A DNA stretch of 63,896 bases, counting the filler. It is 11 parts of 11 records of this genome, joined end to end, with 100 filler letters (N's around TTAATTAATTAA, not from the genome) between each part and the next. Parts side by side here need not be neighbours in the genome. Positions count along the whole stretch, not along the records: positions 26,167 to 32,431 come from SRR7504441_1974; 10 more parts are not named here. One strand, written 5' to 3'. The notes beneath the pieces are model-generated. The model worked only from the letters and a program-made list of their open reading frames with translations, was not told the DNA's origin and ran no database searches. Both the position numbers and the translations under genes were made by a program. Below are positions 3,883 through 59,999 of this stretch, piece by piece. Numbering within the stretch: the stretch's first letter is position 1; the number at the start of each line of letters is the position of its first letter.

Positions 3883-6800
3883 TTAACCCGCGTCAGCGAC
3901 GCACCGAAAGCCGATAGTACCACACCGCTCGAAAGAGTCGTCCATCAGAAAGTACTTACCGTGCTCCAATAGACTGCTAGGACGAGGATAGTAAAAGGTC
4001 GAGTAACTCGACCTGTCGTAGTTGCATGCTCCTTGGGTGATGACCGAGGAGGTGTGCTCATCGCTAAACCGACTCGTGAAATGGTAGACTGACCCGTATA
4101 CATCCGAAACATTGAAGCGCGAAGATCCATTTGGGAAGAGACCGACATCGACAGGACCAGGTATGGTGTCACCTAACCATCTGCTTTGTGTCCCGTTTGC
4201 GAAGTAGAGATAGTTCGGGCGAGGGTAGCGGGATGGGTCGTCTAATGCTCCCCAGGGGAACGCGAGCCCTCCTGGATGGCCCCCTTGCCCCCCAAGCGCA
4301 GCATACTGGTATTCATAAGCCTCAGGCAGGCGCTTGCCATAGTGCTGACAGAACGCTCTCGCCTCGTCAAAACTGATGTACGTGACAGGCTTATTGTCAT
4401 ATTCGTGGGGAAACTCCGGGATAGAACCAGCGCTCTGGGGCGCAGTCAAAACATGCTGCCGGGGGTTCGACCGAGCCGCACTATGATTCCAGTTCTTCAG
4501 CCAGTTGAAAGGATCGTGGGGAACGTACCCGGAGTCTTGGAGGTACTCCTGATACTGCGAGCACGTCACTGGGAAGATGTCGATTAGCAATCCATGCCCA
4601 AAGTGACCCGCAATAGTCATGTTGTGCGCATGCTCTCGACTCGGGGCAGGCTCCCACGGGAACTGCACGTCCACGCCATGTTGGTCGTCACCCTCCTTCT
4701 CCACTCCGCGAGTGACAAACTGGAACAAGCCTGGAGGAGCGTACGCCATGCCCTCAGGAGGCGGGTTGAAGCCAGTCGGGGCTGTGGCGTTGTGATGGAT
4801 TATTTGCTGCGGCTGGACCTTCCACTCGGACGAGAAGGAAGACAGCGGCTGAGCAGTAAGGGTGGCCATCTGACGCAGGAAAGTCCCCAGGGCAGTTTGG
4901 TTGATAGCTGGTTTCTGTATGGAGAGCCGCAGCAGGCACCCGAACCCGCTGGCCTCCATTTCAAAGCTCAAGGTGTGCTTCCCATTCGCACTGGGCTGAG
5001 GTTTGAGGGTCGTGCCGTGGTAGCAATCGTGGTACCTGAATTGTGATACTTCATCAGCGACTTCAAGCTGCGGCCCCTGGAGCGTAGCCTGCCGATCTCG
5101 ATTGATGAAAGTCCAAGCCGCGTTTCCATTGCTCAGCGGGAACATGCTAGCAAATGCCACTCCGCTCTGCACTACTGGCACGTAAGGGATCCAGCCCACG
5201 TTGGCGAAAAATCCATACTGCCCTCCTAGAAATCGCAACATTGTGGACAGGCGCCTGATAGCCTCGCCGTCTCGAGGCACAATCTGGTTGTACACAGACC
5301 ACACCTGCCATAGGTGTTAGTAGCCGCCTCTGCCAGAACTCACGTTTTCCCATGACTCAAAGCCGTCGCCGTTGATCCAGGCGGCTTGCAGATCATCCGT
5401 GTGGTTCTTTGCCCAGCGATTGCACACGTGAGTCATCCGCCTGCCGTCGAGCCATTTCCATTTGTCCACCATCAGGTTGCGCGGGTAGCTGCTGCCGGGC
5501 CCATTGCTGCCTCCAGCCTGGTTGCCATTGTAGGCTACGCCTCCAGTCAGCTCAAACCAATAGCCCCAGCCGATGGTCATCCAATTGAAGTTGGAACTGA
5601 CATGAAATGCTTCGGGTTCCATCGCAATCGTCTGATTGTGGCGCACCAGCGAAGCATTCAGGTAGTCTACCGGAATGCCTCCCATTGTATCACCAAAAAA
5701 GCCATCAAAGTCTGTGCCAGCTATGGTGTCAGCAAGCTCGTCAGCAGTCCACAGCCGCCACTCGAGAGCGCGAGAATGATGCGTACCGCCGTCCCACGGA
5801 TTGAATGGCCACATTGCCTTGACGCCCCGCGCATGCAGCTGGTCGCCAATAGTCTTGAGCTGGCTGATACCTCCAGGCAGCGAGGCGATCATGTCAAACT
5901 GATTCCGATCGTCCACTCCAAGCTGCGGGTAGGTCGGCCACACTAATACCGAGTCGATGCCTCCGTACCTCTCGTTGAGGTCGTCGAGGTACCGGTCCAC
6001 AGTGTAGCTGTGCGTCTTTTGGTTGTAGAAATAAAGATCAAACGGGTGCATCTGCGGCTGAACATAGCTGGTCTGAGTCCACTTGAGGCTCTCCACCTCA
6101 TAAATCGCGCCCGTGTAGTTGATGGCTCTCCGGCACTCGTCTCTCCACTGCTGCAGCTCGGCCAGCCAGGCGGCGTGCGTCTCTGGGCTGCCGTTGGCAG
6201 GTGGTAAAATCAACTCTTGGTAGTGGGCGTTTTTCACATTAAACGACAACGACTCGGGCAGCTCGCACGGATCTGCGGGTGGCGGCGGTGGGGTGGCCCG
6301 CTCCAATCGCTTATATTGCCACCGCATGACCTGCCCTGGGCGGATGGTGGCGTTGAGCAGCCCATGAGTGGGCAGCGACGCGCCTATATGCACCACCCAC
6401 CCAGACAGGCTCGTATCAAACACCCCATCGATCGCCTGCACGAACGGGATCGTGTGGTTGGCCACCCAGGTGTACTGCACAGACACGTTCACCGGCCGGG
6501 CCCGCATGGCCGCCAGCACCACCGACCAACTGTCCATGCACGGGCGGTGCGGGCAGCTCAGGCTCGGGTCGGGCACAAACGGCACTGGGATCCGCTTCGG
6601 ATGCACCCCGCCCCCGCTGGTGGTCAGCCACACCTGCTGCTGGCCCGGGCTGGCTCCGTTGTTGATGGCTCGGAAGGCGTCGGTGCCCGGGCTGCTGCAG
6701 GGCGCCAGCGTCACCTCATGCTCGGTGCCCTCCGGGTCGGCACACAGGCCCGCGCACGAAGGGAAGGCGATGCGCGGGGCGCTAAAGACGGCGCACTCGG

Positions 6801-7053
6801 TCGGTTGTGCGAACTCCCGGAGGCGCAGCGAGGCGCCGGGCTGGCAGCGCTCGGGCGCAATGCAGCGCGTCCCGTTGACGATCAGCCCGGCGCGCTGAAT
6901 CTGCCAGGAGCCTGGGAGCGGCTCGCTGTCGCCCATCTGCACCAGGCAGCCGGCCGCGGTGCACGAGGCGAGCAACGACCTGTCGCCGGTCGAGAGCACC
7001 GCCCCGTCAGCCGCTGCCCAGAGTGCCGGGAGCAGCCACAACAACAGCGCCAT
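3883..7053 (-). CDS. Secreted protein with a glycoside-hydrolase-like central domain and a C-terminal FGE-sulfatase (SUMF1-like) domain
   Basis: Two exons joined by a 39-nt GT-AG intron (5343-5305). Signal peptide MALLLWLLPALWAAA; YTVDRYLDDLNERYGGIDSVLVWPTYPQLGVDDRNQFD; FGE-fold motifs PVTYISFDEARAFC..GKRLPEAYEYQYAA and GTIGFRC. Confidence 0.75.
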
Positions 7054-7080
7054 AGCTCAAACTGAAAGTCCGTTGTCCAG

Positions 7081-7212
7081 GGCTTCGGCGGCAGGGAGGG
7101 ACCCCCACGGTGGGCTGAGCTGGCTGGTGCTGGCGGTCAGCATGGGGCTCGGCGGCGCCTCGCAGGGAGGGGTCCCCACGGTGGGCTGGCTGAGCTGGCT
7201 GGTGCTGGCGGT
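7081..7212 (+). repeat. Imperfect ~60-bp tandem duplication around the LRR gene start
   Basis: gcagggaggg..ccccacggtgggctg(gctg)agctggctggtgctggcggt occurs at ~7091-7137 and ~7162-7212. Confidence 0.8.
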
Positions 7213-10150
7213 GGTGCGCGGCTGCAGCGACTCACCCCTGTACAACTGCACCGAGCTGACGACGCGGTGCGCCTGCGACGACTTCTGCCTGGGCGACTAC
7301 CGACACAGCGTGCGGAGTGCCTGCCCGGGCACCTGCGGGCTGTGCGCGCTGCCCACCGGCGGACCGAGCGACGAGGCCGAGCGAGCGGCGCTGGTGGCGC
7401 TCTACCGGGCGACTGGCGGGGAGCAGTGGACGCACAAGGACGGCTGGCTCAATCGGAGCACCCGGCACTGTCTTTGGTTTGGAGTGAACTGTGACGCGGT
7501 CGGCGCAGTGGCCAACTTGGAGCTCTGGGGGAACGATCTGCGCGGCTCGGTGAGCTCGGAGCTGAGTCCACTTACCCGGCTGGCTCGGCTCTGGCTGCGC
7601 AGCAATTTGCTGAGTGGGACGGTGTCTAGTGAGCTCGCCAGCTTGACCAGCCTTCAAGTGATTGGGCTGATGATTAACAGCCTGAGCGGCACGGTGGGCG
7701 GACCGTTGGCCAGCCTTACGGGGCTGACTGAGATTGGATTGTACGCCAATAGCCTGAGTGGGACAGTGGCCCGGGAGCTGACCAGCCTCACGAACCTCAC
7801 TGTGCTCGGGCTGAGTAGCAACCGGCTAAGTGGCACAGTGGCTGAAGAGCTGGCCAGCCTCACTAGACTGACTAGACTCTGGCTGGACCACAACCAGCTG
7901 AGTGGGACGGTGACCGTGGAGCTCGCCGGTCTTACGCGGCTTGTCCAGCTGGCGCTCGATGCGAACAGCCTGAGTGGGACTGTTGCCCTAGAGCTGACCA
8001 GCCTCACAAGCCTCGCTGGACTCGGACTGAGCGCCAATCGGCTGAGCGGGACGGTAGGCGTAGAGCTATTCAGCCTCACCCAACTCACTCAACTTGCCAT
8101 GGATAAGAATGACCTGAGCGGGACTTTGCCACCAAAGCTGACTCAGCTCACTAGCCTGTTCGAGCTCGACATTGACAACAACTACTTGTCGGGCGAGCTG
8201 CCCGCGCTGCCTGGTACACTCCGCCAGCTCCTGCTGCACAAGAACAGGTTGTCGGGCTCTTTGCCACCTTTAACCAAGCTGACAAGACTAGCAGCATTTA
8301 CCTTGTTCAGCAATAGCTTCCGAGGCCGCCTTCGCCTGCCGGACGACGCCCCGGAACTCCAGGTGCTAGTTGCTCATCGTAATCGGCTCTCTTGCCCTGT
8401 TGAGTACAACGCGAGCTCATACAAACTCGGTGACCATGGGCAGCTCTACCAGCATGGGGCGCTGATTGCACCAGGAAACCGCCTCAGCAACACTCGCAAA
8501 CCTGATTGGGCCACAATGAGCCGAGTGCACTTTGAATGGGTCCCTCGCAGTTTTTGGAGCGAGTGGCGTATCGAAATCTGCGTTTCCACAGCTGCAGTGC
8601 TGGTTTCAGCATGGATCATCGGTACAGTCCTTAGGGGAGAGTGGTGCAGCTTCTTTGTCTTCCGACCTCAGGGCGTGTACGAGCAGTACAGCTGGCTCTG
8701 CTTGCGGCTGCTGCTGGCACTTTGTCCCTTTGGCATCTGTCTGGCGCTGGCTTATGCCACAGGCGCGGGCGAGTTTGAGTGCGGCCAAGCCTGGCTCTCA
8801 GCAACCTTGGCTTATCTGAGTGGCCATCCGAGTTCAGAGCTAGCCGCAGCCGTGCTGGTTTGCTGTGGGGTGGCAGCACAAAGCTTTGCTATCTTTGTCA
8901 TCCGTGGCTGGGGGCACGAGGACAACACCGAGGAAGCCCCGGATCTTGTGGTAGGAGTGCCACGACGAAGGTGGCTGGCTATTGGTTTGATTTGGCCAGT
9001 CGCTGTGCTGCTGCTTTCAGTACCCAGTTTTCTTGCAATAATGGCAAAATCAGTGCCAGGAGGGCAAAACACCCTCGGGCTATCGCAATCAGCCCTGAAT
9101 ACGGTCGGATTTCTCACGAGCCCTGTGCTATCCTTCATAGACCAGGTTTTGGTTCCTTACAGTGCCCGAGCACTTGCAGACCGACACGCCCGCCACATGG
9201 TCGTGTTTATGATGCTTGCAGCACGGTGTGTGATTTTGCTTGCGGTGCCTTTTTGGACCGCGCTGGCCCTGGGGTCGGATTGCTACAGCCTGTGGGTGGA
9301 GTACTGGGAGCCGTGCCGCGATCCCGCAAATTTCAACATGCAGTACACCGTTGGTGGCTACAGTGAGGAGATCAGTGGTGTTCACTACACGTACAAAGCA
9401 GTGACCACAACTGTGCTACAGCACCCCGAGGTGTGCACAGTCCAGGCTCCTACGACTGGTCGATGTGCCAGATTCGCGCTCGAGAGCCTGGCAGAGCTGA
9501 TCGTGGGCAAGCTAAGCTTCAACATATTTGTGAGCCCAGCGGTCACTTTATTCCTTAGCCTGTCGTGGGTGGTGTCGGCACGGAGGTGGGTAATGCGGAC
9601 AGTGTTCCGCCAAGGTGGGTATGAGCGCACCATAGACTTGGATATTGAAGTCGTGCTGGTCTCAATGCTTCTGCACGAGGTGCTGGTGCTCGGCATTGCG
9701 GTGCCTGTGGTTATTCCAATGGGTTGCCTAGTCATTGCTGGTAGGCTCGCCGTGGTGCATCTCGTGAAGAGCAAGATGGGTGCAGAGTTTGCACACCACC
9801 ACAAAATTAATGCGCTGCCAAGTTCGGGGTACTTGTGTGTGTCACTCCTGCTTGGATGTGCGTTACTGCTGTGGTTCTTTGTGAGCAACGTAGAGCTCGT
9901 GCGAGGTTCAATCATAGTCTACGCTGGAATGCCGATCGGGCTGCTCTTGGGAGGCGTGTGCGGCTGGGCTTGGCAGCGGCGGTACAATGCTCAGTCGGGA
10001 GGGACTGAGGTCTCTGTGCTGCTCGCGGAGCTTGAGGACGCGTCGACTAGGCGAGCTACATACGCCACGAGTGACGACGGGAATCTGCATGAATACACAT
10101 TGTGGGAGGCTGGAGATGGCGACTTGGACTTGAAGAGACGGACATTCTAG
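7142..10150 (+). CDS. ShKT-like + LRR ectodomain multi-pass membrane receptor-like protein
   Basis: Hydrophobic N-terminus, then CSDSPLYNC...CPGTCGLC (ShK-like), an LRRNT cap ERAALVALYRATGGEQW..GWL..HCLWFGVNC, 13 plant-type LRRs of mostly 24 aa (LxLxxNxLSG), then many hydrophobic segments. Intronless. Confidence 0.85.
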   Translation: MGLGGASQGGVPTVGWLSWLVLAVVRGCSDSPLYNCTELTTRCACDDFCLGDYRHSVRSACPGTCGLCALPTGGPSDEAERAALVALYRATGGEQWTHKDGWLNRSTRHCLWFGVNCDAVGAVANLELWGNDLRGSVSSELSPLTRLARLWLRSNLLSGTVSSELASLTSLQVIGLMINSLSGTVGGPLASLTGLTEIGLYANSLSGTVARELTSLTNLTVLGLSSNRLSGTVAEELASLTRLTRLWLDHNQLSGTVTVELAGLTRLVQLALDANSLSGTVALELTSLTSLAGLGLSANRLSGTVGVELFSLTQLTQLAMDKNDLSGTLPPKLTQLTSLFELDIDNNYLSGELPALPGTLRQLLLHKNRLSGSLPPLTKLTRLAAFTLFSNSFRGRLRLPDDAPELQVLVAHRNRLSCPVEYNASSYKLGDHGQLYQHGALIAPGNRLSNTRKPDWATMSRVHFEWVPRSFWSEWRIEICVSTAAVLVSAWIIGTVLRGEWCSFFVFRPQGVYEQYSWLCLRLLLALCPFGICLALAYATGAGEFECGQAWLSATLAYLSGHPSSELAAAVLVCCGVAAQSFAIFVIRGWGHEDNTEEAPDLVVGVPRRRWLAIGLIWPVAVLLLSVPSFLAIMAKSVPGGQNTLGLSQSALNTVGFLTSPVLSFIDQVLVPYSARALADRHARHMVVFMMLAARCVILLAVPFWTALALGSDCYSLWVEYWEPCRDPANFNMQYTVGGYSEEISGVHYTYKAVTTTVLQHPEVCTVQAPTTGRCARFALESLAELIVGKLSFNIFVSPAVTLFLSLSWVVSARRWVMRTVFRQGGYERTIDLDIEVVLVSMLLHEVLVLGIAVPVVIPMGCLVIAGRLAVVHLVKSKMGAEFAHHHKINALPSSGYLCVSLLLGCALLLWFFVSNVELVRGSIIVYAGMPIGLLLGGVCGWAWQRRYNAQSGGTEVSVLLAELEDASTRRATYATSDDGNLHEYTLWEAGDGDLDLKRRTF

Positions 10151-16458: not shown

Positions 16459-25931
<9,473 letters not shown>

Positions 25932-27764: not shown

Positions 27765-29147
27765 TCATATGAGAAGTGGGGCTTTGCCGGCTGCGCCCGG
27801 GATGCGCTCCCCAAACTTGATCATGTGCAACGTGTTGTAAACCCGCACCACGCACTCGCCGCAGCCATCCACATAGCAATTCAGGTTGTCAGCAGCCTCG
27901 CACTCGTAACACCAAAAGGACAAATCAGACAGCCCGCAGACCACAGGGTGCTTGGTCTCGTCGTAATGCATCTTGGCGTGCCGGTGGGCCGCCCGCCCGC
28001 AGTGCAGCGCTCCGCATTGCAAACAGATCATGTTCTGCTCCCGGTGGTTGCACCCAGCGTGCTGGCACTTGCCAAAGAAAACATTATCAAAGTCGAGCGC
28101 CTCCAGCTGCACGCCAGTGGCCAGATGCGCACACCCGGCCTTCACGTCCACCACCACCCCGAACATGCTGTCGTCCGCCGGCTCCGAAATGTTGGACTCC
28201 ACTCTGCACAGCTGTCCTGCGGCCGGCGACTCGACACCGGCCAATATCGGGGCGCCTTCACTCGGCCGGGCCCAGAGCACCGCGCTCACCTGCATGTAGC
28301 CTTTGCCGTGGGTGAGCTCGGGATGTGGTGAGACCAGCACCACTTTGCCCGCGCCAAACATCGACCTTGTGGCGGCCCAAGTGCCCGGCAGCAGCCCCAC
28401 CGGCGGCTTGCTCTCCTCGGGCACTCGGAAGTACTCCGCTCTGTGCGATGCGCTCCGGAACAGCGGCTTGGCGGCACCGCAGGCCACACAGCAGTCGGCG
28501 CTGTCCAGGTTCTGTTGCTCGCAGGAGAGGCAGGCCCAGTGGGCGTTCTGGCTCGAGTATCGCTCCTGGAGCATCTCCACGTCCCTCCGGTAGTCGGCCA
28601 GGATATCGTTAGCAAACAGCGCGAGCGGCTGGACCTCGCCGCAACGGCTGTCAAACGGCTGGTCGAGCGCAGCGGGGCCCATCATCGGCCCGCCCTGCAG
28701 GCTGACGAAGTCGTCATCCGGGCGCCAGTCGCGGCCGTAGTTGAGCGTCTCACTGAAGCCGTCCAGCGGGGTGAGGTAGGCGTCGGCCACGTAGTGGGCC
28801 AGCAGCTTGTTGTCATAATTCGTGCCGGTGACGTGCACCCTAGCAAGACCCATCGCATGCCCAAAGTAGGCGCCGCCGCATATGCCCACGAACCCACCGC
28901 CGCGCTCCACAAAGGTCCGGACCCGCTCGCGCCCCACCGGGCCGAGGTCGTGGTACACGCCCTTGTGGTCGCCGCCCGGGCAGACGAACACATCGTACCC
29001 GTCCAGCGGGGCGCGCTTGACCTCCTCGGGCGTGACGCGGGTGCAGCACACCGCCGGGTCAGCAGCCATGTCCTGGGCAGTCAGCTCGACGCAGATCGAG
29101 GCCACCCCCCGCCCGTCGAACAGGGCCACCCGCACCGGCCCTTCCAT
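27765..29147 (-). CDS. BPL_N/class I GATase-like domain fused to RanBP2-type and ZnF-UBP zinc fingers
   Basis: VFVCPGG, FVERGGGFVGICGGAY and SPHPE; WACLSCEQQNLDSADCCVACGAAKP; CAHL...ICLQCGALHCGRAAHRHAKMHYDETKHPVVCGLSDLSFWCYEC. Intronless. Confidence 0.8.
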   Translation of the reverse strand: MEGPVRVALFDGRGVASICVELTAQDMAADPAVCCTRVTPEEVKRAPLDGYDVFVCPGGDHKGVYHDLGPVGRERVRTFVERGGGFVGICGGAYFGHAMGLARVHVTGTNYDNKLLAHYVADAYLTPLDGFSETLNYGRDWRPDDDFVSLQGGPMMGPAALDQPFDSRCGEVQPLALFANDILADYRRDVEMLQERYSSQNAHWACLSCEQQNLDSADCCVACGAAKPLFRSASHRAEYFRVPEESKPPVGLLPGTWAATRSMFGAGKVVLVSPHPELTHGKGYMQVSAVLWARPSEGAPILAGVESPAAGQLCRVESNISEPADDSMFGVVVDVKAGCAHLATGVQLEALDFDNVFFGKCQHAGCNHREQNMICLQCGALHCGRAAHRHAKMHYDETKHPVVCGLSDLSFWCYECEAADNLNCYVDGCGECVVRVYNTLHMIKFGERIPGAAGKAPLLI

Positions 29148-29213
29148 CCCGAAAGGCCGCCGCACCAACTGAAACGGCCAGCTCAGCACACCCCCGGCAG
29201 TCGGTCACGGGTG

Positions 29214-30389
29214 ATGATGAGAACGGTGCTGCTGCTGCTGGCATGGCTGGGCATGGCGGGCGCCTCGGTCAACTTCAGCACCGGTGCACTCCAGGTGGGC
29301 CTGAACGCCCGCACCCAGACCCTCGCCACGCTCTCCCCGCTCGCTGGCCCGCCCAGCCCAGGCTTCTCGTTCGCCTGCTGCGCTGGCTCGAACCTCAACC
29401 GGACCGGCCCGCCCTTTCACCACCTAGGCGACGTCACCTTCCGGGTCCGCCCCCCTGGCGCCGCCAACGATACCCAATTCTCCACCGCCGGTCCAAATGC
29501 CACCGGGGCTGCCGTGCCGGTGAGCCGGGCCGGGGAGCTGGCGGGGGCGGACCTCACTCAGCTGCTGGCGCCGGGCTCACCACTCAGCCTGTCCCGGCAC
29601 TTTGCGGCCGATCCGTCCAACCAGGACCTGCTGATCAGCTACGAACTCGCCCATCGGGACCCTGCCGGAGAGCCTGTGGAGCTCAGTGCATTCGGGGTGT
29701 CGCTGGTGACCGATCAGCTCTTCTCCGGCCGGAGCCTGGCGGCGGTGGCCGAGGCGTGCTCGTTCAGCGATCCGTACATCGGAGGGGCGGCTGGGTATGT
29801 GCAGGTGGTGAGCACTACGGGGCTCGGCCCGGTGCTGCTGGTGCTGCCTGAGGGCGAGGCCGGGGTGGAGGGCTGGCGGATGATAGAGGAGGACCCCACC
29901 CCGCGGGGGGTCACGTTCGAGGGATTCTACGAGCTGGTAGTCCACTCCAAGAGCTACGTCGAGCACGAGTGGCCGCAGGCCTGGAATCCAGGCAGCTCGC
30001 ACGTCATCAACCCTGGCGAGACCTACACGATCACGCTGCGCCTCTAATCGAGCAGTTCATGTGTGCCGCGCGATACTTTCCACACCAGGGCCTACCTTGC
30101 TCCACTGGGGCTTGATGTGCTCGTAGAAGCGGGCAGCTTCTCGAGTGCTGTCTTAAATCTGGAGGCCAAAGAATTGACAATGCACTTCGATACTGATCCT
30201 ACAGTACAATTCTCCCCGGCCCAGATTCGGGTCCGACTCGATACTCCGGCACTGAAAGCCGGCCACAGAAGTGCCACCGGGTTTGAGGCTCACTCAAGCA
30301 AAGGCCCGCTCAAGATGTCGAGAGGTGCTTTCGAGTTGCCTCTCGATGCTGCGAGCACAAAGATGATTATCACGTGGGCAACAGCCTAA
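29214..30389 (+). pseudogene. DUF5695-like secreted glycoside-hydrolase-like protein, apparently internally deleted
   Basis: Signal peptide and N-terminal motifs (HHLGDVTFRVR, FSDPYIGGAAGYVQV, DPTPRGVTFEGFYE..HSK) end at TAA 30045-30047. A same-frame C-terminal-like fragment (PRDTFHTRAYLAPLGL) follows directly. Confidence 0.55.
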
Positions 30390-33149: not shown

Positions 33150-36100
33150 TATGCTCATATCCTTGTTGTACTCGCCTGCATCGCATCATCCGTAAGTCAG
33201 ACCATGAGCAGCCAGAGGCAGAAAGGATACCAGGGCATGCGTTCTTGTATGGGCACTTGTTGATCATGGTGTTTGGCCCCCAGTCTGTCACTGGAAGTGG
33301 TCGACAGTTTGTCCCATCACAGATCCCAGTCCAGGCATTCTTCTTGGCCAACGGATATCGGTTTGGTCCTGTGCTTGTCCATGGCTTTGCCAGATTGCAG
33401 TTGGCGCCCTGCATAGCAGAGGGGTCAGAGGCAGCCGGATTGGTAGAGGCCGTGTCACATTAAAACCGCTGCCAACAATTGGCCCCTTCTTGCACGTCTT
33501 CTTCATGTCAGTGCACGCCATGCCGTCCTCCCCGTATTCCCCTGTGTTGCTTGGATCCACACCAGTGTATTGCCACTCCCGGATGAACTTGCCGTCGGGA
33601 CAAAAGCAGCCACCAATCCCAACGCTGCCTTTGAGGCTGGATGATCCCGCTGGGCACCTGCAGCACACACCAGGCTCAGTACACACCTCACGCCATCAGG
33701 AGGAGCAGAGTCACTCACTGCTGACACTTGGCGTTGATTGCAGGGCTGAAGAAGCCAGCGGGGCACGGGGAGCAAGCCTTCACAAACATCTTCTGCGAGT
33801 ACAGGGCCTGAGTGAGAGCTGCCTCCGGCTGCCATCCCTTGGGGCAGTCTCGCGCCAAGATCTGGCCGTAGGCGACCACTGGGTTTGCAGAGATGTCTCC
33901 AAACTTGCGCATCTCCCATGGAATGGACTGATAGTCCATCCGGTGCGCACACTGCACTCGCAGATTGAGCGCAGCATCGAAGTAGGATCTGAATTCAATG
34001 GCTTTGAATTTGTTGGATCCCTGTGCAGTGGTCGAATCCAAGACACCAGCCAGGGTCGGTGCGCGGATGCAGTCGGGGTTGTTGAGAGCTGAGTCTTGTG
34101 CCAGCGCACAGGGAGCCTTGTGGCCGTAGAGTTCTGTGGAAGATGGGGACACATCCGCCTTGAGCAGACAGAACGTGCTGTTGGCAATGTAAACCGGCTG
34201 CTGAAGAGCGTCGAATGTCGAGAACTTGAGCGCATTCATGTCCTCGCCGTGGTTCCCATACACGTTGTCGTAGGCCACACCAGGGATGAAACCTTGCGCC
34301 TTGTTGCTGACCCCAGGCGTGCTCAAGCTCATGGCTGCTGGCACTGCAAGCAAAGCACAGATCAAACAGACAGGCATCAGGGTGGCTTACAGGTTGCGTA
34401 GGTGCTGTTTGATGTGCCATCCGCATTGGAATCCCCATACACCTCGTACAGAGACGCCCCTGGCTCACCAGAGTGGTAGTAGGCCATGTTGTCTTGGGTG
34501 AGGGGCAGGTCCGCCGAGCCGTTGTTGAGCTTGTCTCCGATGAAGATCCGATTTTGGACTGCTGCTGCAGCTGCGCTGGACGCTGAGCGTCTCGAGGATG
34601 CCTGGATGTCAAGCGCCTCGAGCAGGTCGGCCGTGGTGTTGTAGAGCAGGGCGGCGACACTGCCAGAGCCCGCGTAATTGCGCTGGACGGTGGTCTCGTT
34701 GATCATGGCCGTCAACGGCACCCGGTCAAACGCAAAGGCGCCGCCCCAGAGGTCTGCCGCATTCTCGTACAAGGCCATCTTTTGCAGCTTGAGGGCCCCA
34801 CCGGGACACTTTGTGCCGTCTGATGGCGTGTGCGCCGGGCACGCACGGGAGGCATTCCCCAGGCTGTCCTGCGGGTCGCGGTCCCATGAGTAGAAGTTGT
34901 TCATTGGGTCGTCGCAGCTCTTGTCGCCGATTGGTGGCAAGTTGAGATCGCCGTCCTTATTCCTGATGGCATCGCAGTAGTTGACACTCGTAAAGTTGCA
35001 GCTGGCCAGTGAGCTGTTTGTGCAGTAGATGTTGGATTTGAGCCGTGTGTGGTTGCAGATGGAAGCCGAGGTCCCAAGTATTGGGGAGACGGCCAGTGAA
35101 GCTGGGTAGCCACCGGCACATACTGGAGCCGCTTCCGATGTGCAGTCACACTTTCTGAGCGGGCCTCGTGGGTACCTGGTCGCGTTTCGCATCCGGGCCG
35201 GATCGCCCTCCTGGATGCCGCGTGAGTAGAAGGCTCCACCAGCCTGCTTGCCAATGTTGTTGCTGAGCACCGTCCCTCCGGTCTGGCCGCGCATCCAAAT
35301 GCTGCCGTTGGCGTGCAGGATGGCAGCAAAGCCTCCAGCAACATCTGCATAGTTCCTGGTGCCAGAGCAGTTGTCCATGTACGTGAACGCGTTTTGCGTG
35401 GCAAAGGCACCACCATTCAGACCCGCCACATTTCCAACAAAGCTGGTGTCGCTGATGGTCACATTTGACAGGGGGAAGATCGGCTCGTTCTTCAGCAGGT
35501 CCTTGGGCTCGCTGCCCAGCCAGTACGAGCCCAGGTCGTGCTCCACAAACATTGCGCCACCGTCCTCGCCAGCACTGTTCTCCTCAAACGTCGAGCTCGC
35601 AATCTGGAGCCGGGGCCCGCCGCGGACCTGGATTGCACCGCCGTCGTGGTAGGCTCGGTTCCCTTTGAACTTGCAGTTGGTGACCTCAGCTTGTGAATTG
35701 TCCATCAGCAGCATGACTCCGCCGCCACGCCCGTCGTAGCCGAGAGCTCGGTTATTTGTGAACGTGACATCAGTCAGGTAGACCTTTGAGGTGTACTGCG
35801 CAAATATGGTGCCTGCGTACCACGAGGCGTAGTTGTTCTTGACCGTCATGTTTTGGAGGGTCGCAGAGGACTCGCCCTTGAGCCACATGCCGGCCGTGTG
35901 CCGAGCTGAGAAATTCTCCTCGATGGTGCCATCGTAGAGCTCGATGCTGCTCGTCTGCCACTGATAGAACAGAGTGCCACCGTCACCGCCCATCAGCTTG
36001 TTGCCCTTGAAGCCACAGCCATAGCACTTGAAACTGCTACCCAGCCAGAGTTCCACAACGCAGCCGTAGGTGGTGCATCCGTTCTCGTTGAAATTTGAAC

Positions 36101-39100
36101 CGGCTGCGACAAGCTGGCTCTCTCCAAAAGAAGTAGTGACTGCAAAGCCACCACCCCCGTCCTGAGCGAATCCCCGGTTGAACTCGGAGTTTCGGGCAAT
36201 GACACTTGCTGACCAGAGCTTGAAGTGCCCACCAAGGACACTGTTACTTGGATCTTGCGGCAGGGCAAGCGAGTCGTCGAGAATGGAATCATCGAGAGTG
36301 AAAGCCAACGTCACTTTCATAGTGTGCACTGCTCCGCCCACAGTAGTGGTGCCCAAGCATCGATAGTTTGTCGCAACGCTCGGACAGCCTGGGATTGACG
36401 ACGCCCCTTGGCCGCCGACCGGGTAGCTGCCGCTGCAGTTGTTGCTGGTGGTTGTGCAGGCTTTCTGAATAGCGGTTGTTGCACCCTGGCAGAAAAAGCC
36501 GCCGTTACAGGCAGACTGCTGCTGGATTGTACTGCCTTTGATGTTCACGATGACCTGGACCACCTTGTCTCCGGCAGCATAGAGCAAGCCCCCTTGGGTG
36601 CAGGTCTGACTCCCCAAGTAGCGCTGGCCACCGTCACCCGTCATGGCCTGGGTCAGCATGTAGTACTCGTCCGTGGTCGTAAACATTCCAATGTTACCAT
36701 TTATACAGGTGCCCGAGCTGCAGTCGTATGCAAGAGGGCAAGTCCAGGTCGCCCCGCTGGCCCAGGCCATGCCAAGGTTTGCGCCGTTGGTTGACTTCCA
36801 GTAGCCATCGGGGCAGCAGAAGACGCGGCCATTCGGGTAGGTCCTTGCTTTGTGCTTTGAGACACCGGGCGCAAAGGCTACAGCTTGTCCTTGTTGATTA
36901 TAAAGGTACGACCCTGGCAGTGTCGCTTCGACCGGCTGACCGCACCAGTGCGTCGTGTTGGTGTAGATGGTGGACACGGTCTTGGTGATGGTGCTGCCCT
37001 CGATGAGCAGCCGGAGAGAAGCCTGTACGTTGATGGCGGCATAGAACCCTTGGGTGAGGCCGGTCACGTTGGAGTCCTTGATGTGCAGCTGCCCGATCCA
37101 CACGTCCTGGCCCGTCCTGATCGCGTCTCTGGATTGGTACGTCCCAAAGGGATCAGGCTGGTACTGGTAGTCTATCAGGGAGCCGGCCAGGAAGGCGGTG
37201 TTGTTGGCCATGGTGCAGCTGTCAAAGGTGATGTTGGGCGCGTCGCGCAAGACAGTGCGCGCCCAGATCACCCCGCCCGCGTCGCGGGCCACGTTGGAGT
37301 CGATGGCGCAGCGGGTGAACCTGATAACTGGGGTGTCCTCCATGAATCTGTACAGGAAGGCGACGTCCTTGTACGCAGCAAGGGAGTTGTCCAAAGTCGT
37401 GCTGGCCGGGATGATGTAGTCCTGGTAGGCGCAGGCATCAAACGGAGCCTGCGTGGGTCGACCGTTTGAGCTTGCCAGACAGCCCTTTGCACCGGACTCG
37501 ACGTCAGGACCACACTCCTGGCAGTAGGTGTTCTTCTTCCTTACGTCTGGCCAGATGGAGACCACGCCGCCCTTCCCGCTCATCTGCTTTGTGTCGGACT
37601 GAGCGGTGGCAGAGTCAGGAAAGGATTGGTAGCGGACCCCGTTGTTTGCAATATAGGTGTCCGACACTCTCAGGTCCCAGGTGCAGTTGTAGATCGGGCG
37701 CTCACTGCCTGCATAGAACTCGAGGGCAAAGACGCCACCGCGCTTTCCCGCAACATTCCATGCAGCGACCGACTTGGAAGCACTGCTGAGTTGTGAGGCA
37801 CTGCTCACTGGGGCCGAGGAGGACATCTCCACGTTGACCTTGGAGCCGTAAGGGATTGTCAAAACACCGTACGTGCCCATTGTGACTGGTGAACATGCAG
37901 CAGGCTCCTCAGTAGGACATATCGGTGGCGGCACCTGGGCAGTGGTGTTCTTCCACGTCGGGACCACTGAACTGTGCCAGTTAACAAGGAAAGCTGCAAC
38001 TGCTGCACCCTTCCATCGGGCAATGTTGGCAACAAACTCGCAGTCAATAAGCTCCAGCTTGGTGGTTTGGGGAGCGTCAATGTACTGGTCAGGCTGAGCT
38101 GTGGGTGTGGAGAGGCCAGCAAACTTGATGGCACCGCCAGCACGGGCTCGGTTACGGATGAACTTATTTCTTTCGAAACGGAAGGTCCCCGTGAGCATTT
38201 GATTCCGGTCCGTCAGGTAGAACGCCCCGCCGTCTCCTGCAACGGCATTCATGGTGAAGATGCTGTCTTTGATGACGTAAGTCCAGTTGTTGGCGCCAAA
38301 TCCGTACCAAAAGCCGCCATGCCAGTTGACAATGCCGTCGATGTTGGACTCAAAGCGCGGCTCCATTGGGGTGTACTTGCCCATTGAGCGGCAGTTGGCA
38401 AAGTACTCGTTGCCCTGCGTGACACTCTTGGAGAAGAGCACGTACTTTGAACCCGGAGTGTACAGCTCGTCGTCGCATCCGGAGGTGTAGCAGGCAGGGT
38501 TGACGCAGGTCCCGGCGCCTGCCCCGCCTGCTGCGACCACGGAATCCCACGTCGGGAAAGTGCCGCAGCACGTGCCACACGCGGCATTGCAGCCGCAGCC
38601 AGGCACTGCATAGCCGTAGTTGTCATAGTTCTTGCACGCATACGTTTCGTAAGGCGTGAGCACCGCGTCTGTATCCGCGATGGGGCCCCCATCCAGCATG
38701 CCCATGAGCGGCCACCGGAGGCTGGGGTCCGGGTGCGTCTCAAACGCGCCCTGGTTGCCCGAGGCGCATGCCAGCTGGGTTAGCGTCTGCTCGCCACATT
38801 TGCACTGCGCACCGACGCAAAAGTACGGCCCAGAGGCATTGAGTTTGTAGCCCAGAGGCATGGTGGTGCTGCTGCTGGCATCCCCTTGGACCAATTGACC
38901 TTGTAAGGAGAAGCAGGTCGCGGGCATGGAGGTGTTGACGGCAGGCTTGCAAACGTTATTTGGGAGAGTGCGTTCAAACTTGGTGGCGCCGTATTGCTGG
39001 TCCGACTTTGGGGCTCCCTTCATCGCCTTGCCGTCAGACCAGCCCTGCCTGGCCGCGTAGACCTGGTTCATATAGACTGTGGCCGGGTACTGCCGCCAGT

Positions 39101-40850
39101 ACTCCTTCAAGCTGGTGTTCTGGCCCAGCGCTTTGGTGGTAGCTCCCTTGAACCCAAACAGGATGCCACGGTTCGGAGCCTGATAGAAGCCTGAACCTTC
39201 ATATGCCTTGTTTTCATAGAAGGCGACCTTGGTGAAGTTGAACACCGGCAGCTCGTTGGTCACGGGCATTTGGGCTGCCGACACCTTGTAGATCCATGAT
39301 GCCCAATCTGCTCCGAGATAACCCGTCCAAAGGCCGCCGATCGCGCCACCCTTCCCATAGCTGTTGGATACCGGATTGAAAGCTGTGTTCCGATAGAAAG
39401 TGCAGCCCTCAATGTTCATCTTTGGGTTCCTGCCAACGCCGAGCTCGAAGACCGGCATGTGGTAGATGGCGCCTCCGGCACCCTTGTCCACCGCATTGCC
39501 CCACGCATTGTTCATGTAGAAGTTGCAGTACGAGCCCATGAACGGCTCGTCTGCCTGGTGGCCTGTGCTCTGGATCCACTTGTTTGAGCCGATTGGGAAG
39601 GCAATCGGTCCTTGGGCGTGAGAGCCAAACGGCACCGGATCGCCCTTCAGGTTGAGCGTCCCGCCAGCCCAGCCAATGGCACCGCCCATCAGCGCCTGGC
39701 TCTTGCCAAAGTCGCAGTTGATGATGTCGTAGACCACGTCGCCAGTGTACCCGCCCCAGAGCTGCAGCACTCCACCAAACCCCACCTGCGCACACATAAG
39801 CGCGTGGTCAGGTGACGGGCGCGAGTGCAGCCGGCCCTGACCTTTGTCGGTGTTCCTGCAGCCTTGCACTTGAGTGTGACGCTGTCAAACTGGGCCGGGT
39901 CGGACACGTTGCACGGGCAGGTGAACCAGTCCGGAACCTGGGACGCAAGCTGAGGGTGCCCGTTGAGGCACACGGTCGGGATCAGTGTGCCGCCGTTAGC
40001 GTAGCTGGCTGTGTTGGCCCAGTTTCGTGCAGCGTTGCCTGGGCAGTATGTGGTTCCACCGTTAGAACCAGAGCAGCTGATGTCCTCGTTCTTGGCGTGC
40101 CCACGCATAAAGGCGATGTTTTTCAGTGTCAGTTGTCCACTGTCGCCTTCCCAGCCGCAGCGGCTCGGGGTCCCCGACCAGCAGTGAGAGACAGAAAAGC
40201 TGGGGTCGACCCAGCCCGAAAACGTGAGGAACCGGTCCATGAACTCCAGGTCGACCATCGGCCGGTTGGTCGTCGAGTTGCCCTCGATCCGCTGCGGGCC
40301 TATGAGGGTGCACAGAGCCGAATAGGCGCTGTCCTTGGCCCCGCTCATTGCAGTGACCCCGCCGGTGGACGCGCCGGCCTGGGCGCGCAGGTCCCTGACA
40401 GCAGGAGTCCGGTAAGCGTCGCACCCGCTAGCCAAGGCGGGGTTGCGGGCTCACCGGTTACGCTCCCCGGCAAAGTACCCGCCGCTGGCCAGCAGGACCT
40501 TGGCATCGGCCGCGCCCCACTTGATCCGGTTGGCAAACGCCCACTTGATCGACTTGCACGGGGCGCTCCAGCTGGCTCCGCAGCTGGTGTCGTCGGTGCC
40601 GTTGACGCCGCCGTCGTAGACGAGGTCATTGACGTGGTCGTACCGCTTGCCCGAGTCGACATACACTGGAGCCCAGACAATCAGTCCCAATCCAGGCAGT
40701 GCGAGCCGCACCGACGTCGATGGCACCAGACTGCTGGCAGCACGCGTCGACCAGGTTGTCGTCCGGCTTGGCCGCATTGTTGCACGCGCTCACAGTCAGG
40801 ATGGGCCATGCTGCCGCCAGCATGGCCACCCACGCCACGCGCGCCACCAT
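33150..40850 (-). CDS. Giant secreted right-handed beta-helix protein with Pmp-like GGA(I/V)/FxxN repeats and Cys-rich tail (3' end uncertain)
   Basis: Signal peptide MVARVAWVAMLAAAWPILTVSA; many FxxN...GGAI/GGAF/GGAM motifs in ORF 34377-39869. It continues through a 47-nt intron (34390-34344) into ORF 33715-34377 and CSPCPAG/CPAGS Cys-rich modules. Confidence 0.75.
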
Positions 40851-54173: not shown

Positions 54174-54273
54174 NNNNNNNNNNNNNNNNNNNNNNNNNNN
54201 NNNNNNNNNNNNNNNNNTTAATTAATTAANNNNNNNNNNNNNNNNNNNNNNNNNNNNNNNNNNNNNNNNNNNN

Positions 54274-59952: not shown

Positions 59953-59999
59953 ACATACCACAGAGCTCCAGGCTGAGCGTGGCTGAGCGGTGACATAGA

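What the first reader, a model, noticed from the sequence alone, without database searches (positions are those of the whole stretch)
27765..29147. GATase-fold (BPL_N-like) Cys-His-Glu enzyme fused to two ubiquitin-binding-type zinc fingers: candidate new DUB/isopeptidase
Seen: nucleophile-elbow GICGG (Cys codon 28880-28878) and HPE (28325-28317); a W-x-C-x2-C-x3-N-x6-C-x2-C finger inside the domain; a C-terminal HDAC6/USP5-type ZnF-UBP. Known: class I GATase folds use Cys-His-Glu to hydrolyse amide bonds, including gamma-glutamyl bonds. ZnF-UBP binds the free ubiquitin C-terminal diGly. Some RanBP2/NZF fingers bind ubiquitin, although the TF motif is absent here (EQ/QQ). Inference: an amidase acting on ubiquitin adducts or unanchored chains. 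No recognised DUB family has this fold, to my knowledge.
Basis: partly seen in the sequence, partly recalled or inferred. Interest (0 to 1): 0.72.

Follow-up and report, generated by a model that had tools for sequence, protein, structure and literature searches.

The report
Glutaminase-fold amidase with ubiquitin-binding fingers
A marine protist gene joins a glutamine-amidotransferase-type cysteine enzyme to a zinc finger that normally grips the free tail of ubiquitin, a combination my searches did not find described, so it may be a new kind of ubiquitin-directed enzyme, though what it cuts is unknown.

Summary
Window 27765-29147 (-) is one uninterrupted 460-aa gene. It has a class-I glutamine-amidotransferase (GATase) fold domain (Pfam BPL_N 2e-12; VIA Z 20.6 to the Pdx2 glutaminase). 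Its Cys90/His275/Glu277 align with the catalytic Cys/His/Glu of PdxT. A RanBP2-type zinc finger is inserted at residues 204-223. A C-terminal ZnF-UBP (Pfam 2.6e-14; HDAC6 9e-13) keeps 12 Cys/His columns and 4 of 6 HDAC6 pocket residues that contact the ubiquitin tail, including the two whose joint mutation abolishes ubiquitin binding. A 73%-identical ortholog has the same architecture. Third-codon-position divergence shows selection along the whole frame, linker included. The family is tiny: five representative clusters carry the finger insertion, and they form one group (100/99). The sister branch lacks the ZnF-UBP, but its inserted finger keeps a Thr-hydrophobic pair where ubiquitin-binding NZF fingers have Thr-Phe/Tyr (Thr-Phe itself in one of three). 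So two ubiquitin-reading modules point to a ubiquitin-linked role. Deubiquitinase activity is untested, and every characterised triad enzyme of this fold that I recall cleaves glutamine or gamma-glutamyl amides. Best reading: a ubiquitin-directed cysteine amidohydrolase whose scissile bond is unknown. A new DUB fold is possible (about 0.2). Three literature searches found no description of this architecture.

The parts
27765..29147 (-). Whole coding sequence, 460 aa plus stop, single exon
   Evidence: End-to-end 73% ortholog P0002/L001. Codon-position divergence.
28248..29147 (-). Class-I GATase-fold (BPL_N-like) catalytic domain, residues 1-300
   Evidence: Pfam BPL_N 2e-12. AF2 pLDDT mostly >90 over 1-300. 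VIA Z 20.6, rmsd 2.5 A, 193 aligned, to Pdx2 2abw_A. Foldseek matches to PurQ, ThuA and GGP1.
28971..28979 (-). P57-G58-G59, which aligns with the P-G-G strand of PdxT (oxyanion region, recalled role)
   Evidence: G58 and G59 are invariant, 55 of 55 rows. Aligned to PGG of PdxT.
28878..28880 (-). Cys90, nucleophile at the strand-helix elbow (G-I-C-G-G)
   Evidence: 55 of 55 rows in A2. Aligned to the Cys of G-T-C-A-G in PdxT chains. Lies between strand 85-89 and helix 91-98.
28479..28538 (-). RanBP2-type zinc finger inserted in the catalytic domain, residues 204-223. The Thr-Phe position reads Glu-Gln.
   Evidence: W, 4 Cys and Asn are invariant in the 6 relatives. pLDDT 70-82.
28317..28325 (-). 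His275-Pro276-Glu277, the general base and acid of the triad
   Evidence: His in 51 of 55 rows and Glu in 49 of 55 rows in A2. Aligned to S-F-H-P-E-L-T of PdxT. The inactive-glutaminase chain 4wxy_B carries Asn at this His.
28134..28247 (-). Conserved linker, residues 301-338
   Evidence: 76% aa identity to the ortholog, with 0.66 third-position differences per codon. Shared with P0005. An RNA-library contig covering 28081-28230 bridges into the ZnF-UBP.
27798..28133 (-). ZnF-UBP, residues 339-450, HDAC6-type
   Evidence: Pfam zf-UBP 2.6e-14. HDAC6 chains 9e-13 to 2e-9. 12 Cys/His columns are shared with HDAC6.
27993..27995 (-). Arg385 = HDAC6 Arg1155 (ubiquitin C-terminus gatekeeper)
   Evidence: Alignment. 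Role taken from passages of PMC3268394.
27906..27914 (-). Trp412-Cys413-Tyr414 = HDAC6 Trp1182/Cys1183/Tyr1184
   Evidence: Alignment. Roles taken from passages of 10.1101/268557 and PMC3268394.
27873..27875 (-). Tyr425 = HDAC6 Tyr1189, placed after a 6-residue insertion
   Evidence: Alignment. Role taken.

Best explanation
The gene encodes a ubiquitin-directed cysteine amidohydrolase. Shown: the N-terminal 300 residues are a class-I glutamine-amidotransferase fold. Cys90, His275 and Glu277 sit at the sequence positions of the PdxT/Pdx2 catalytic triad, and a conserved Pro-Gly-Gly sits at the oxyanion strand. Inferred: Cys90, activated by His275/Glu277, attacks an amide carbonyl and forms a thioester that water then resolves. 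Shown: the C-terminal domain is an HDAC6-type ZnF-UBP with all 12 Cys/His columns and Arg385, Trp412, Tyr414 and Tyr425 in place. Inferred: it docks on a free ubiquitin C-terminus (unanchored ubiquitin or chains, or ubiquitin attached through something other than Gly76). This brings the amidase to, or switches it on at, ubiquitin-bearing assemblies. The scissile bond is not identified. From the chemistry of all characterised triad enzymes of this fold, and from the fusion partners of the bacterial relatives, I rank a glutamine or gamma-glutamyl-type amide on the ubiquitin-marked species above the Gly76 isopeptide bond.
For: Fold: VIA Z 20.6 (rmsd 2.5 A, 193 residues) to Pdx2, and Z 15-19 to HisH, PurQ, PabA and GuaA glutaminase domains. 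Foldseek agrees. Triad homology: the family profile aligns its Cys with the G-T-C-A-G Cys of PdxT and its S-P-H-P-E with S-F-H-P-E-L-T. The inactive mutant chain has Asn at that His. Conservation in 55 rows: Cys 55, His 51, Glu 49, plus 2 Asp. Of 152 representative hits, 134 carry both an elbow motif and H-P-[ED]. ZnF-UBP. The R1155A/Y1184A double mutant of HDAC6 loses ubiquitin binding (passages of PMC3268394), and both residues are kept here. The pocket residues named in 10.1101/268557 are kept at 4 of 6 positions. Family-level ubiquitin link: the finger-bearing proteins form one group (100/99). The branch without a ZnF-UBP has Thr-Phe/Thr-Leu/Thr-Val plus a hydrophobic residue in the second Cys pair; Thr-Phe plus that residue, in P0008, meets the NZF ubiquitin-binding signature as defined in PMC11372445 (passages), which names Thr-(Phe/Tyr). 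The ZnF-UBP branch has Glu-Gln there. One gene. RNA-library contigs from 3 studies cover pieces of the gene at 95-99+% identity, and one bridges linker to ZnF-UBP. Of the 15 listed differences, 14 fall on third codon positions (my arithmetic). Gamma-glutamyl-type leaning: of 95 relatives scanned, 8 are fused to AstE_AspA_cat, 7 to FGase, 2 to Peptidase_M99, 1 to Peptidase_M14 and 1 to Asparaginase_2.
Against: No biochemical data exist. Two of six HDAC6 pocket positions differ (Tyr1156 to Ala386, Trp1143 to Met373; Gly and Met in the ortholog), so ubiquitin affinity could be low or the ligand could be different. The inserted finger of this protein lacks the Thr-Phe motif. AF2 did not fold the ZnF-UBP with confidence, so pocket geometry was not inspected. 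The bacterial relatives are largely secreted proteins with no ubiquitin context, and their fusions say little about a eukaryotic substrate. The Pfam BPL_N match covers only profile positions 3-96 of 283.
Confidence: 0.45

Rival explanations
1. It is a true deubiquitinase/isopeptidase of a new fold. As in USP5/isopeptidase T (recalled), the ZnF-UBP holds the free C-terminus of the proximal ubiquitin of an unanchored chain. The GATase-fold Cys90 cleaves the Gly76-Lys isopeptide bond of the next ubiquitin.
For: A cysteine hydrolase fused to a ZnF-UBP with a mostly intact pocket. A second ubiquitin-reading module (an NZF-like finger with Thr-hydrophobic, Thr-Phe in one) is fused to the same catalytic domain in the sister branch. 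From recall: USPs with ZnF-UBP and TRABID with NZFs are DUBs, and the narrow glutamine side-chain channel of GATases could in principle admit a Gly-Gly tail (inference).
Against: No characterised Cys-His-Glu enzyme of this fold is known to me to cleave a Gly carbonyl or to bind a protein tail (recall). No match to any DUB family appears in Pfam at E <= 1. HDAC6 (recall; ZnF-UBP role from passages of PMC3268394) and CAPN15 (PMC12805371, search listing and start of abstract only) show that these fingers also guide enzymes that do not cut ubiquitin bonds.
Confidence: 0.2
2. It is a metabolic or housekeeping glutaminase/gamma-glutamyl hydrolase acting on small molecules. The zinc fingers serve regulation, localisation or a non-ubiquitin ligand (another C-terminal Gly-Gly, RNA or Ran for the RanBP2-type finger).
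For: The best sequence-profile and structure matches are free-glutamine glutaminases (PdxT/Pdx2, HisH, PurQ). Bacterial relatives are fused to small-molecule amidohydrolases. The finger here lacks the Thr-Phe motif, and 2 of 6 ZnF-UBP pocket residues differ.
Against: There is no synthase partner domain. Pfam SNO, GATase and Peptidase_C26 are not matched at E <= 1. Two independent ubiquitin-type fingers in one small family are hard to explain without ubiquitin. Arg385 and Tyr414, essential for ubiquitin binding in HDAC6, are conserved in both orthologs.
Confidence: 0.2
3. The GATase-like domain is a non-catalytic scaffold, as is said of the N-terminal domain of yeast biotin-protein ligase (recalled from domain-database text). 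On this reading the protein is only a ubiquitin receptor or adaptor.
For: The Pfam family matched is BPL_N, whose founding members are not known as hydrolases (recall).
Against: Cys, His and Glu are invariant in all 6 finger-bearing relatives and nearly so in 55 rows. They align with a proven catalytic triad.
Confidence: 0.08

Closest known systems
PdxT/Pdx2 (SNO) and other class-I glutamine amidotransferase glutaminase domains (HisH, PurQ, PabA, GuaA)
   Same: Same alpha/beta fold (Z 15-20.6). Nucleophile-elbow Cys, H-P-E and P-G-G motifs at aligned positions.
   Different: No synthase partner or domain. A zinc finger is inserted in the domain and a ZnF-UBP is appended. About 15% identity. 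Pfam SNO and GATase are not matched for this protein at E <= 1.
Bacterial BPL_N-like proteins (Pfam PF09825), many with an N-terminal hydrophobic leader in the examples read (P0003, P0004, P0007, L007, L009, L023), often in tandem copies or fused to AstE/AspA-, FGase- or M14/M99-type amidohydrolases
   Same: Closest sequence relatives of the catalytic domain (1351 representatives at E <= 0.001). Same Cys/His/Glu.
   Different: None of the 95 scanned lists zf-UBP or RanBP among the 25 of 28 families shown. A ZnF-UBP core pattern was found only in P0001 and the P0002 cluster among all stored proteins. Their function is also unknown.
HDAC6
   Same: A hydrolase with a C-terminal ZnF-UBP. This finger is most like HDAC6's (9e-13). 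12 Cys/His columns and Arg1155/Trp1182/Tyr1184/Tyr1189 equivalents are kept.
   Different: Unrelated catalytic domain. Tyr1156 and Trp1143 equivalents are Ala and Met. There are a 6-residue and a 2-residue insertion after the W-C-Y-x-C segment and a 2-residue one in the first Cys pair.
USP5 / isopeptidase T, and other USPs with ZnF-UBP
   Same: The logic of a cysteine hydrolase plus a reader of the free ubiquitin C-terminus (recalled). USP33, USP49, USP20 and USP16 fingers match at 2e-6 to 2e-4.
   Different: Papain-like USP fold against the GATase fold. No USP5 chain reached E <= 1.
TRABID (OTU DUB with NZFs) and CAPN15 (calpain with NZFs)
   Same: A cysteine hydrolase combined with RanBP2/NZF-type fingers. 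The TRABID NZF gives weak matches (E 0.57-0.66). CAPN15 is described as a ubiquitin-directed protease that cleaves E-cadherin (PMC12805371, listing and abstract start).
   Different: Here the finger is inserted inside the catalytic domain and lacks Thr-Phe. The folds are unrelated.
Gamma-glutamyl hydrolase / gamma-glutamyl peptidase GGP1 (MEROPS C26, recalled)
   Same: Same fold and triad, used as a peptidase on gamma-glutamyl bonds (Z 14.2-14.7; Foldseek rank 5).
   Different: No Pfam Peptidase_C26 match at E <= 1. No zinc fingers in those enzymes.

Membership tests
Class-I glutamine amidotransferase-like superfamily | Alpha/beta fold with a nucleophile elbow between a strand and a helix | tested here: met
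   Z 20.6 to 2abw_A, with many GATase domains at Z >= 14. Cys90 lies between strand 85-89 and helix 91-98.
Class-I glutamine amidotransferase-like superfamily | Cys-His-Glu triad at homologous positions | tested here: met
   The profile alignment to PdxT chains puts Cys on Cys and H-P-E on H-P-E. The 4wxy_B inactive mutant has Asn at the His. The 3-D distances were not measured.
Pfam BPL_N (PF09825) | Score above the gathering cut-off | tested here: met
   47 bits against 24.2, but only profile positions 3-96 of 283 are matched.
PdxT/SNO glutaminase | Pfam SNO match and a Pdx1 synthase partner | tested here: not met
   SNO is not among the families at E <= 1 for P0001. The partner could not be tested because no genome is held.
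ZnF-UBP (PF02148) | Score above the gathering cut-off and the Cys/His zinc-ligand pattern | tested here: met
   53.6 bits against 22.7. C339, H341, C361, C366, C375, C378, C383, H390, H394, H400, C413 and C416 align with Cys/His of HDAC6. That these bind three zinc ions is recalled.
Ubiquitin-binding ZnF-UBP subtype (HDAC6/USP5-like) | Pocket residues for the free Gly-Gly carboxylate (HDAC6 W1143, R1155, Y1156, W1182, Y1184, Y1189) | tested here: inconclusive
   4 of 6 are kept (R385, W412, Y414, Y425). M373 and A386 differ. Binding itself is not testable here.
RanBP2-type zinc finger | W-x-C-x2-C-x3-N-x6-C-x2-C scaffold | tested here: met
   Pattern present. Pfam is below its cut-off for P0001 (9.2 against 27) but above it for the homologous insert of P0008 (31 against 27).
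NZF (ubiquitin-binding subgroup of RanBP2 fingers) | Thr-(Phe/Tyr) after the second Cys, plus a hydrophobic residue inside the second C-x-x-C (PMC11372445, passages) | tested here: not met
   Glu210-Gln211 and Val-Ala here. Relatives have Thr-Phe/Val-Met (P0008, meets the definition), Thr-Leu/Arg-Leu (P0006) and Thr-Val/Ser-Val (P0012), which are close to but outside the stated Thr-(Phe/Tyr).
Recognised deubiquitinase families (USP, UCH, OTU, Josephin, MINDY, ZUFSP, JAMM; list recalled) | Sequence or fold membership in one of them | tested here: not met
   Only zf-UBP, BPL_N, DJ-1_PfpI, ThuA and Zn_ribbon_RanBP appear at E <= 1. The catalytic fold is GATase.
Deubiquitinase (functional class) | Cleavage of ubiquitin-Gly76 amide or isopeptide bonds | not testable with these tools
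   Needs enzyme assays.

The most novel reading that the evidence does not exclude
The GATase-fold Cys-His-Glu domain is itself a ubiquitin-deconjugating enzyme, which would be a new structural class of DUB. One version is a USP5-like trimmer of unanchored chains. A bolder version is an eraser of non-canonical, glutamine-linked (transglutaminase-type, gamma-glutamyl-epsilon-lysine) ubiquitin adducts. In such adducts the ubiquitin C-terminus stays free for the ZnF-UBP, and the scissile bond is exactly the gamma-glutamyl amide this fold is built to cut.
Probability: 0.2. Interest if true: 0.9.

Novelty: new variant of a known kind. Interest (0 to 1): 0.6.

Why it matters
Domain fusions of a hydrolase with ubiquitin readers have helped to recognise new deubiquitinase families (recalled). 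Here one catalytic domain of a fold never linked to ubiquitin has acquired two different ubiquitin-reading zinc fingers in two sister branches. If the enzyme cuts ubiquitin bonds, it adds a new DUB fold. If it cuts gamma-glutamyl or glutamine amides on ubiquitin-marked targets, it is a new kind of ubiquitin-directed protein-modifying enzyme, parallel to HDAC6 and CAPN15. Either way it would give the first functional handle on the large, uncharacterised BPL_N-like Cys-His-Glu family (1351 representative clusters). Limits: the finger-bearing family is very rare and known only from uncultured or little-studied protists, and nothing has been tested at the bench.

Tried and rejected
1. Complex prediction of residues 1-300 with the window's own ubiquitin (22320-22547) returned 'no answer' (score 0.01 against a mark of 0.34, and the tool did not use my alignment). 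It counts neither for nor against binding.
2. AF2 did not fold the ZnF-UBP. pLDDT was below 50 over 302-460 in the full model, and the mean pLDDT was 39.9 for residues 301-460 alone with 6 rows. No pocket geometry or fold search of that domain was possible.
3. The search for homologous proteins with region 330-460 and lengths 'shorter' found nothing (6 candidates, none scored), so no deeper ZnF-UBP alignment could be built.
4. The word-indexed searches were shallow: 3 hits and 4 hits (where only 8000 candidates were scored). I never ran the 'longer' option, so longer fused forms are not excluded.
5. NCBIfam gave 0 families.
6. No whole genome is held, so paralogs and partners could not be sought.
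7. The search of earlier findings returned one unrelated Pup-locus note that shares 2 of 104 words, nothing for this genome, and nothing by words.
8. Literature searches. 'ZnF-UBP' + 'amidotransferase' gave 0 papers. 'deubiquitinase' + 'glutamine amidotransferase-like' + 'ubiquitin-binding' gave 0. 'UBP-type zinc finger' + 'amidotransferase' gave 0. 'BPL_N' + 'glutamine amidotransferase' gave 1 and 'PF09825' gave 1; from the listings both looked irrelevant, and I did not read them. These searches cover only the held open-access library.
9. ESM Atlas gave only BPL_N clusters at 0.88-0.89, below its own 0.9 lead level.
10. Sequencing runs: all five RNA runs hold small shares (0.05-0.13). The parts of the gene without contig cover say nothing. 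No contig spans the whole gene.
11. The metagenome scan gave 35 loci. Only L001 is an ortholog. L007, L009 and L023, which I read, are bacterial-looking genes with N-terminal leaders. The other 31 loci were not inspected.
12. P0005 (48% identity) shares the linker, but its last ~110 residues give no zf-UBP match. I could not tell whether this is a real loss or a transcript-assembly artefact.
Full report
**The sequence**

Window 27765-29189 (-) is an open frame of 474 codons. From the first ATG (29147) it encodes 460 residues. TGC for Cys90 lies at 28880-28878 within G-I-C-G-G. CAT-CCC-GAG for His275-Pro276-Glu277 lies at 28325-28317. The stop codon is followed by AT-rich sequence.

The start codon lies 57 bases from the start of a divergent gene with a signal-peptide-like start and a DUF5695 match (29205-30044 +, 5.3e-50). 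The window looks eukaryotic. No prokaryote genome is held for it. A neighbouring alpha-2-macroglobulin-like gene is split over several frames. Near-identical fragments occur in poly(A)- or oligo-dT-selected marine RNA libraries.

The 534-codon + strand frame that overlaps the gene (28443-30047) is a shadow frame in 68% GC DNA up to the DUF5695 start.

**It is one gene**

P0002 (463 aa) aligns end to end at 73% identity, start to stop, with the same Pfam pair zf-UBP + BPL_N. Its DNA, L001, is an uninterrupted frame on an 1834-base contig. Between the two genes, codon positions 1, 2 and 3 differ at 0.21, 0.15 and 0.62 per codon. The same pattern holds in every segment, including the linker 301-338 (0.21/0.18/0.66) and the ZnF-UBP (0.22/0.13/0.55). 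Of 338 codons with an identical amino acid, 203 differ in DNA.

Six short contigs (151-262 bases, 95-99+% identity) from four RNA libraries of three studies lie on the gene. One (28081-28230) bridges the linker/ZnF-UBP boundary. No joints were seen. Of the 15 listed differences, 14 fall on third codon positions of this frame (my arithmetic). The tool warns that presence in an RNA library does not prove transcription, and no contig spans the whole gene.

**The catalytic domain**

- Pfam gives BPL_N (2e-12, residues 7-97). Sub-threshold matches to DJ-1_PfpI and ThuA belong to the same clan (clan membership recalled).
- With a 55-row alignment, AF2 models residues 1-300 at pLDDT mostly above 90.
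- VIA-align gives Z 20.6 (rmsd 2.5 A, 193 residues, model range 2-300) to the Pdx2 glutaminase. It gives Z 14-19 to HisH, PurQ, PabA, GuaA, ThuA-like proteins, gamma-glutamyl peptidase 1 and gamma-glutamyl hydrolase. Foldseek agrees.
- A profile of the family, searched against PDB sequences, finds PdxT chains at 1e-8 to 2e-6. It aligns the family's G-i-C-A-G-A with G-T-C-A-G-A, its P-G-G with P-G-G, and its S-p-H-P-E-l-t with S-F-H-P-E-L-T. In the chain deposited as an inactive glutaminase mutant (4wxy_B) that His is Asn.
- So Cys90, His275 and Glu277 are homologous to a proven catalytic triad.
- In the model Cys90 sits between strand 85-89 and helix 91-98, and H-P-E directly follows strand 267-272.
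- Conservation in the 55 rows: Cys 55, Gly58 and Gly59 55 each, His 51, Glu 49 (plus 2 Asp).
- I could not read model coordinates, so triad distances are not measured.

**The inserted finger**

Residues 204-223 read W-x-C-x2-C-x3-N-x6-C-x2-C, between helix 182-199 and helix 233-239, with pLDDT 70-82. For this protein alone Pfam's RanBP model is not significant (E 0.98), and Nup153 and TRABID fingers match only weakly (0.018-0.66).

Homology is still secure. The same insert in relative P0008 passes Pfam (1.4e-7). The query's region 193-251 also hit a nine-finger RanBP2-like protein in ten stretches (P0040, 1.4e-17).

By the definition quoted in PMC11372445 (passages read), ubiquitin-binding NZF fingers add Thr-(Phe/Tyr) after the second Cys and a hydrophobic residue inside the second Cys pair. 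This protein has Glu-Gln and Val-Ala, so it is a RanBP2-type finger but not an NZF in that sense.

**The ZnF-UBP**

- Pfam zf-UBP scores 2.6e-14.
- HDAC6 finger chains are the best PDB sequence matches (9e-13 to 2e-9). USP33, USP49, USP20 and USP16 follow (2e-6 to 2e-4). No USP5 chain reached E <= 1.
- Twelve Cys/His columns are shared with HDAC6: C339, H341, C361, C366, C375, C378, C383, H390, H394, H400, C413, C416.
- I counted along the human HDAC6 chain printed from Arg1155. Trp1143, Tyr1156, Trp1182, Tyr1184 and Tyr1189 all fall on the residue types named in the papers, so the mapping is self-consistent.
- The equivalents here are Met373, Arg385, Ala386, Trp412, Tyr414 and Tyr425.
- According to passages of 10.1101/268557, the ubiquitin C-terminal carboxylate is held by hydrogen bonds to R1155, Y1156, Y1184 and Y1189. 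It is also held by amide-pi and NH-pi contacts to W1182 and W1143.
- According to passages of PMC3268394, R1155A/Y1184A abolishes ubiquitin binding, and R1155/Y1156 act as gatekeepers.
- So four of six pocket residues are kept, including both members of the tested double mutant. One gatekeeper and one Trp are not kept, and the ortholog has Gly and Met there.
- I rate ubiquitin-tail binding as likely (about 0.7) but not shown.

**The family**

An exhaustive HMMER search of 1.84 billion representatives with residues 1-335 found 1351 proteins at E <= 0.001, 273 at <= 1e-10 and only 4 at <= 1e-30. The closest are:

| Protein | Identity | Notes |
|---|---|---|
| P0002 | 73% | same architecture as this gene |
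| P0005 | 48% | EukProt transcript assembly |
| P0006 | 34% | |
| P0008 | 32% | |
| P0012 | 27% | EukProt record that names Rhizamoeba saxonica |

All six proteins share the triad and the finger's W, four Cys and Asn as invariant columns. Among the 152 representative hits, a finger pattern occurs in P0002, P0006, P0008, P0012 and the unrelated P0040. P0005 has a degenerate, longer version that the pattern misses.

In a maximum-likelihood tree of 55 rows (287 columns kept), the nine finger-bearing rows form one side of a branch with 100/99 support. They split into (P0006,(P0008,P0012)) at 97/86 and (P0005,(P0001, P0002 cluster)) at 100/99. The root is not known.

The first branch has no ZnF-UBP. 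Its finger carries Thr-Phe/Val-Met, Thr-Leu/Arg-Leu or Thr-Val/Ser-Val; only the first meets the quoted Thr-(Phe/Tyr) definition. It also has an N-terminal extension with a shared P-[DE]-x-P-[FL]-V-W-D motif. The second branch has Glu-Gln in the finger and a conserved linker plus the ZnF-UBP. P0005 shares the linker, but its last ~110 residues do not match zf-UBP.

Two different ubiquitin-type readers on one catalytic domain, in complementary distribution, is the strongest argument that the family works on or near ubiquitin. It rests on only five representative clusters.

**What the relatives suggest about chemistry**

The remaining relatives look bacterial. The ones I read begin with hydrophobic leaders (P0003, P0004, P0007, L007, L009, L023). 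Several carry two to five tandem BPL_N domains.

Of 95 further representatives scanned, all match BPL_N. The fusion partners are:

- AstE_AspA_cat: 8
- N-formylglutamate amidohydrolase (FGase): 7
- Peptidase_M99: 2
- Beta-lactamase: 2
- Peptidase_S51: 2
- Peptidase_M14: 1
- Asparaginase_2: 1

Three of the 28 matched families were not shown. The last 39 representatives were not scanned.

These partners hydrolyse N-acyl-Glu/Asp amides or peptide C-termini, going by their family names. Every characterised Cys-His-Glu enzyme of this fold that I can recall attacks a glutamine carboxamide or a gamma-glutamyl amide. Examples are glutaminase domains, gamma-glutamyl hydrolase, GGP1, PuuD and SpuA, and several of these appear. 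Together these points lean toward that type of bond rather than a Gly76 isopeptide.

**Mechanism and odds**

Shown: the fold, a homologous triad, an intact zinc-ligand pattern, a partly conserved ubiquitin-tail pocket, one gene under selection, and a finger-bearing clan.

Inferred: thioester catalysis by Cys90, docking of the ZnF-UBP on a free ubiquitin C-terminus, and hence delivery or activation of the amidase at unanchored ubiquitin or ubiquitin-bearing assemblies.

My ranking:

| Reading | Probability |
|---|---|
| Ubiquitin-directed amidase with a non-Gly76, probably gamma-glutamyl/Gln-type, scissile bond | 0.45 |
| True DUB of a new fold | 0.2 |
| Small-molecule glutaminase/gamma-glutamyl hydrolase with regulatory or non-ubiquitin fingers | 0.2 |
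| Non-catalytic scaffold | 0.08 |

For CAPN15 I saw only the search listing and the start of the abstract of PMC12805371.

A bold version that the data do not exclude concerns ubiquitin attached through a glutamine side chain (transglutaminase-type, recalled from Legionella MavC/MvcA work). Such an adduct keeps a free C-terminus for the ZnF-UBP and presents a gamma-glutamyl-epsilon-lysine bond to a GATase-type active site.

**Novelty**

Three full-text searches that combined ZnF-UBP or DUB terms with amidotransferase terms returned no paper. Two searches on BPL_N/PF09825 returned one paper each, both irrelevant by their listings and unread. These cover only the held open-access library and no supplements.

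I classify the finding as a new variant of a known kind: a GATase-fold hydrolase newly combined with ubiquitin readers. It would become categorically new only if DUB or ubiquitin-adduct activity were shown.

Noticed in passing
window 21876-22547 (+), within the A2M-like gene 17805-25931: A Hint/intein-type domain (Intein_splicing 9.7e-11, PT-HINT 1.1e-10) ends, in the next frame, in a typical intein C-terminal block. It is followed in frame by a complete ubiquitin (PF00240, 1.4e-31; 76 residues ending R-G-G, first residue Lys instead of Met) and then by the A2M domain. This is a Hint-ubiquitin cassette placed just after the bait-region domain of an alpha-2-macroglobulin-like protein. It is reminiscent of the intein-like/ubiquitin-like 'BUBL' genes of ciliates (recalled) and is worth its own look.
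   Followed up: partly
window 29205-30044 (+): A divergent neighbour with a signal-peptide-like start and DUF5695 (5.3e-50, profile positions 2-246 of 857). Its start codon is only 57 bases from that of the target gene, so the two must share a very short bidirectional promoter region.
   Followed up: no
window 27825-27875 (-), residues 424-441: The 6-residue insertion after the W-C-Y-x-C segment and the following residues add C424, C429, C432 and H441. In the ortholog, C432 is His. A Cys/His swap at a conserved position suggests a possible fourth zinc site that HDAC6 lacks.
   Followed up: no
relatives P0006, P0008, P0012 (N-termini): The branch without a ZnF-UBP has an N-terminal extension with a shared P-[DE]-x-P-[FL]-V-W-D motif. 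P0006 and P0008 also carry an extra C-x2-C ... C-x2-C ribbon. No Pfam match was found at E <= 0.001.
   Followed up: no
loci L007 2104-3672, L009 2164-3693; protein P0004: Bacterial-looking proteins with N-terminal leaders fuse an AstE/AspA- or M99-type zinc carboxypeptidase-like domain to a BPL_N-like Cys-His-Glu domain. FGase fusions are also recurrent (7 of 95). This large family has no assigned function.
   Followed up: partly
window 34380-39869 (-): An 1830-aa frame with a right-handed beta-helix region and a Chlamydia PMP-type repeat. Other frames in the window match FGE-sulfatase (3886-5304 -), LRR (6959-10147 +), a nucleoside hydrolase (2119-3390 +) and a 3'-5' exonuclease (53386-54222 +).
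   Followed up: no
window 54001-60000: Strong A-over-T skew (0.25-0.42) together with positive GC skew, over the 1311-aa frame 55198-59130, which has no Pfam match. Only one small tandem repeat lies in 53000-60000, at 59897-59952.
   Followed up: partly
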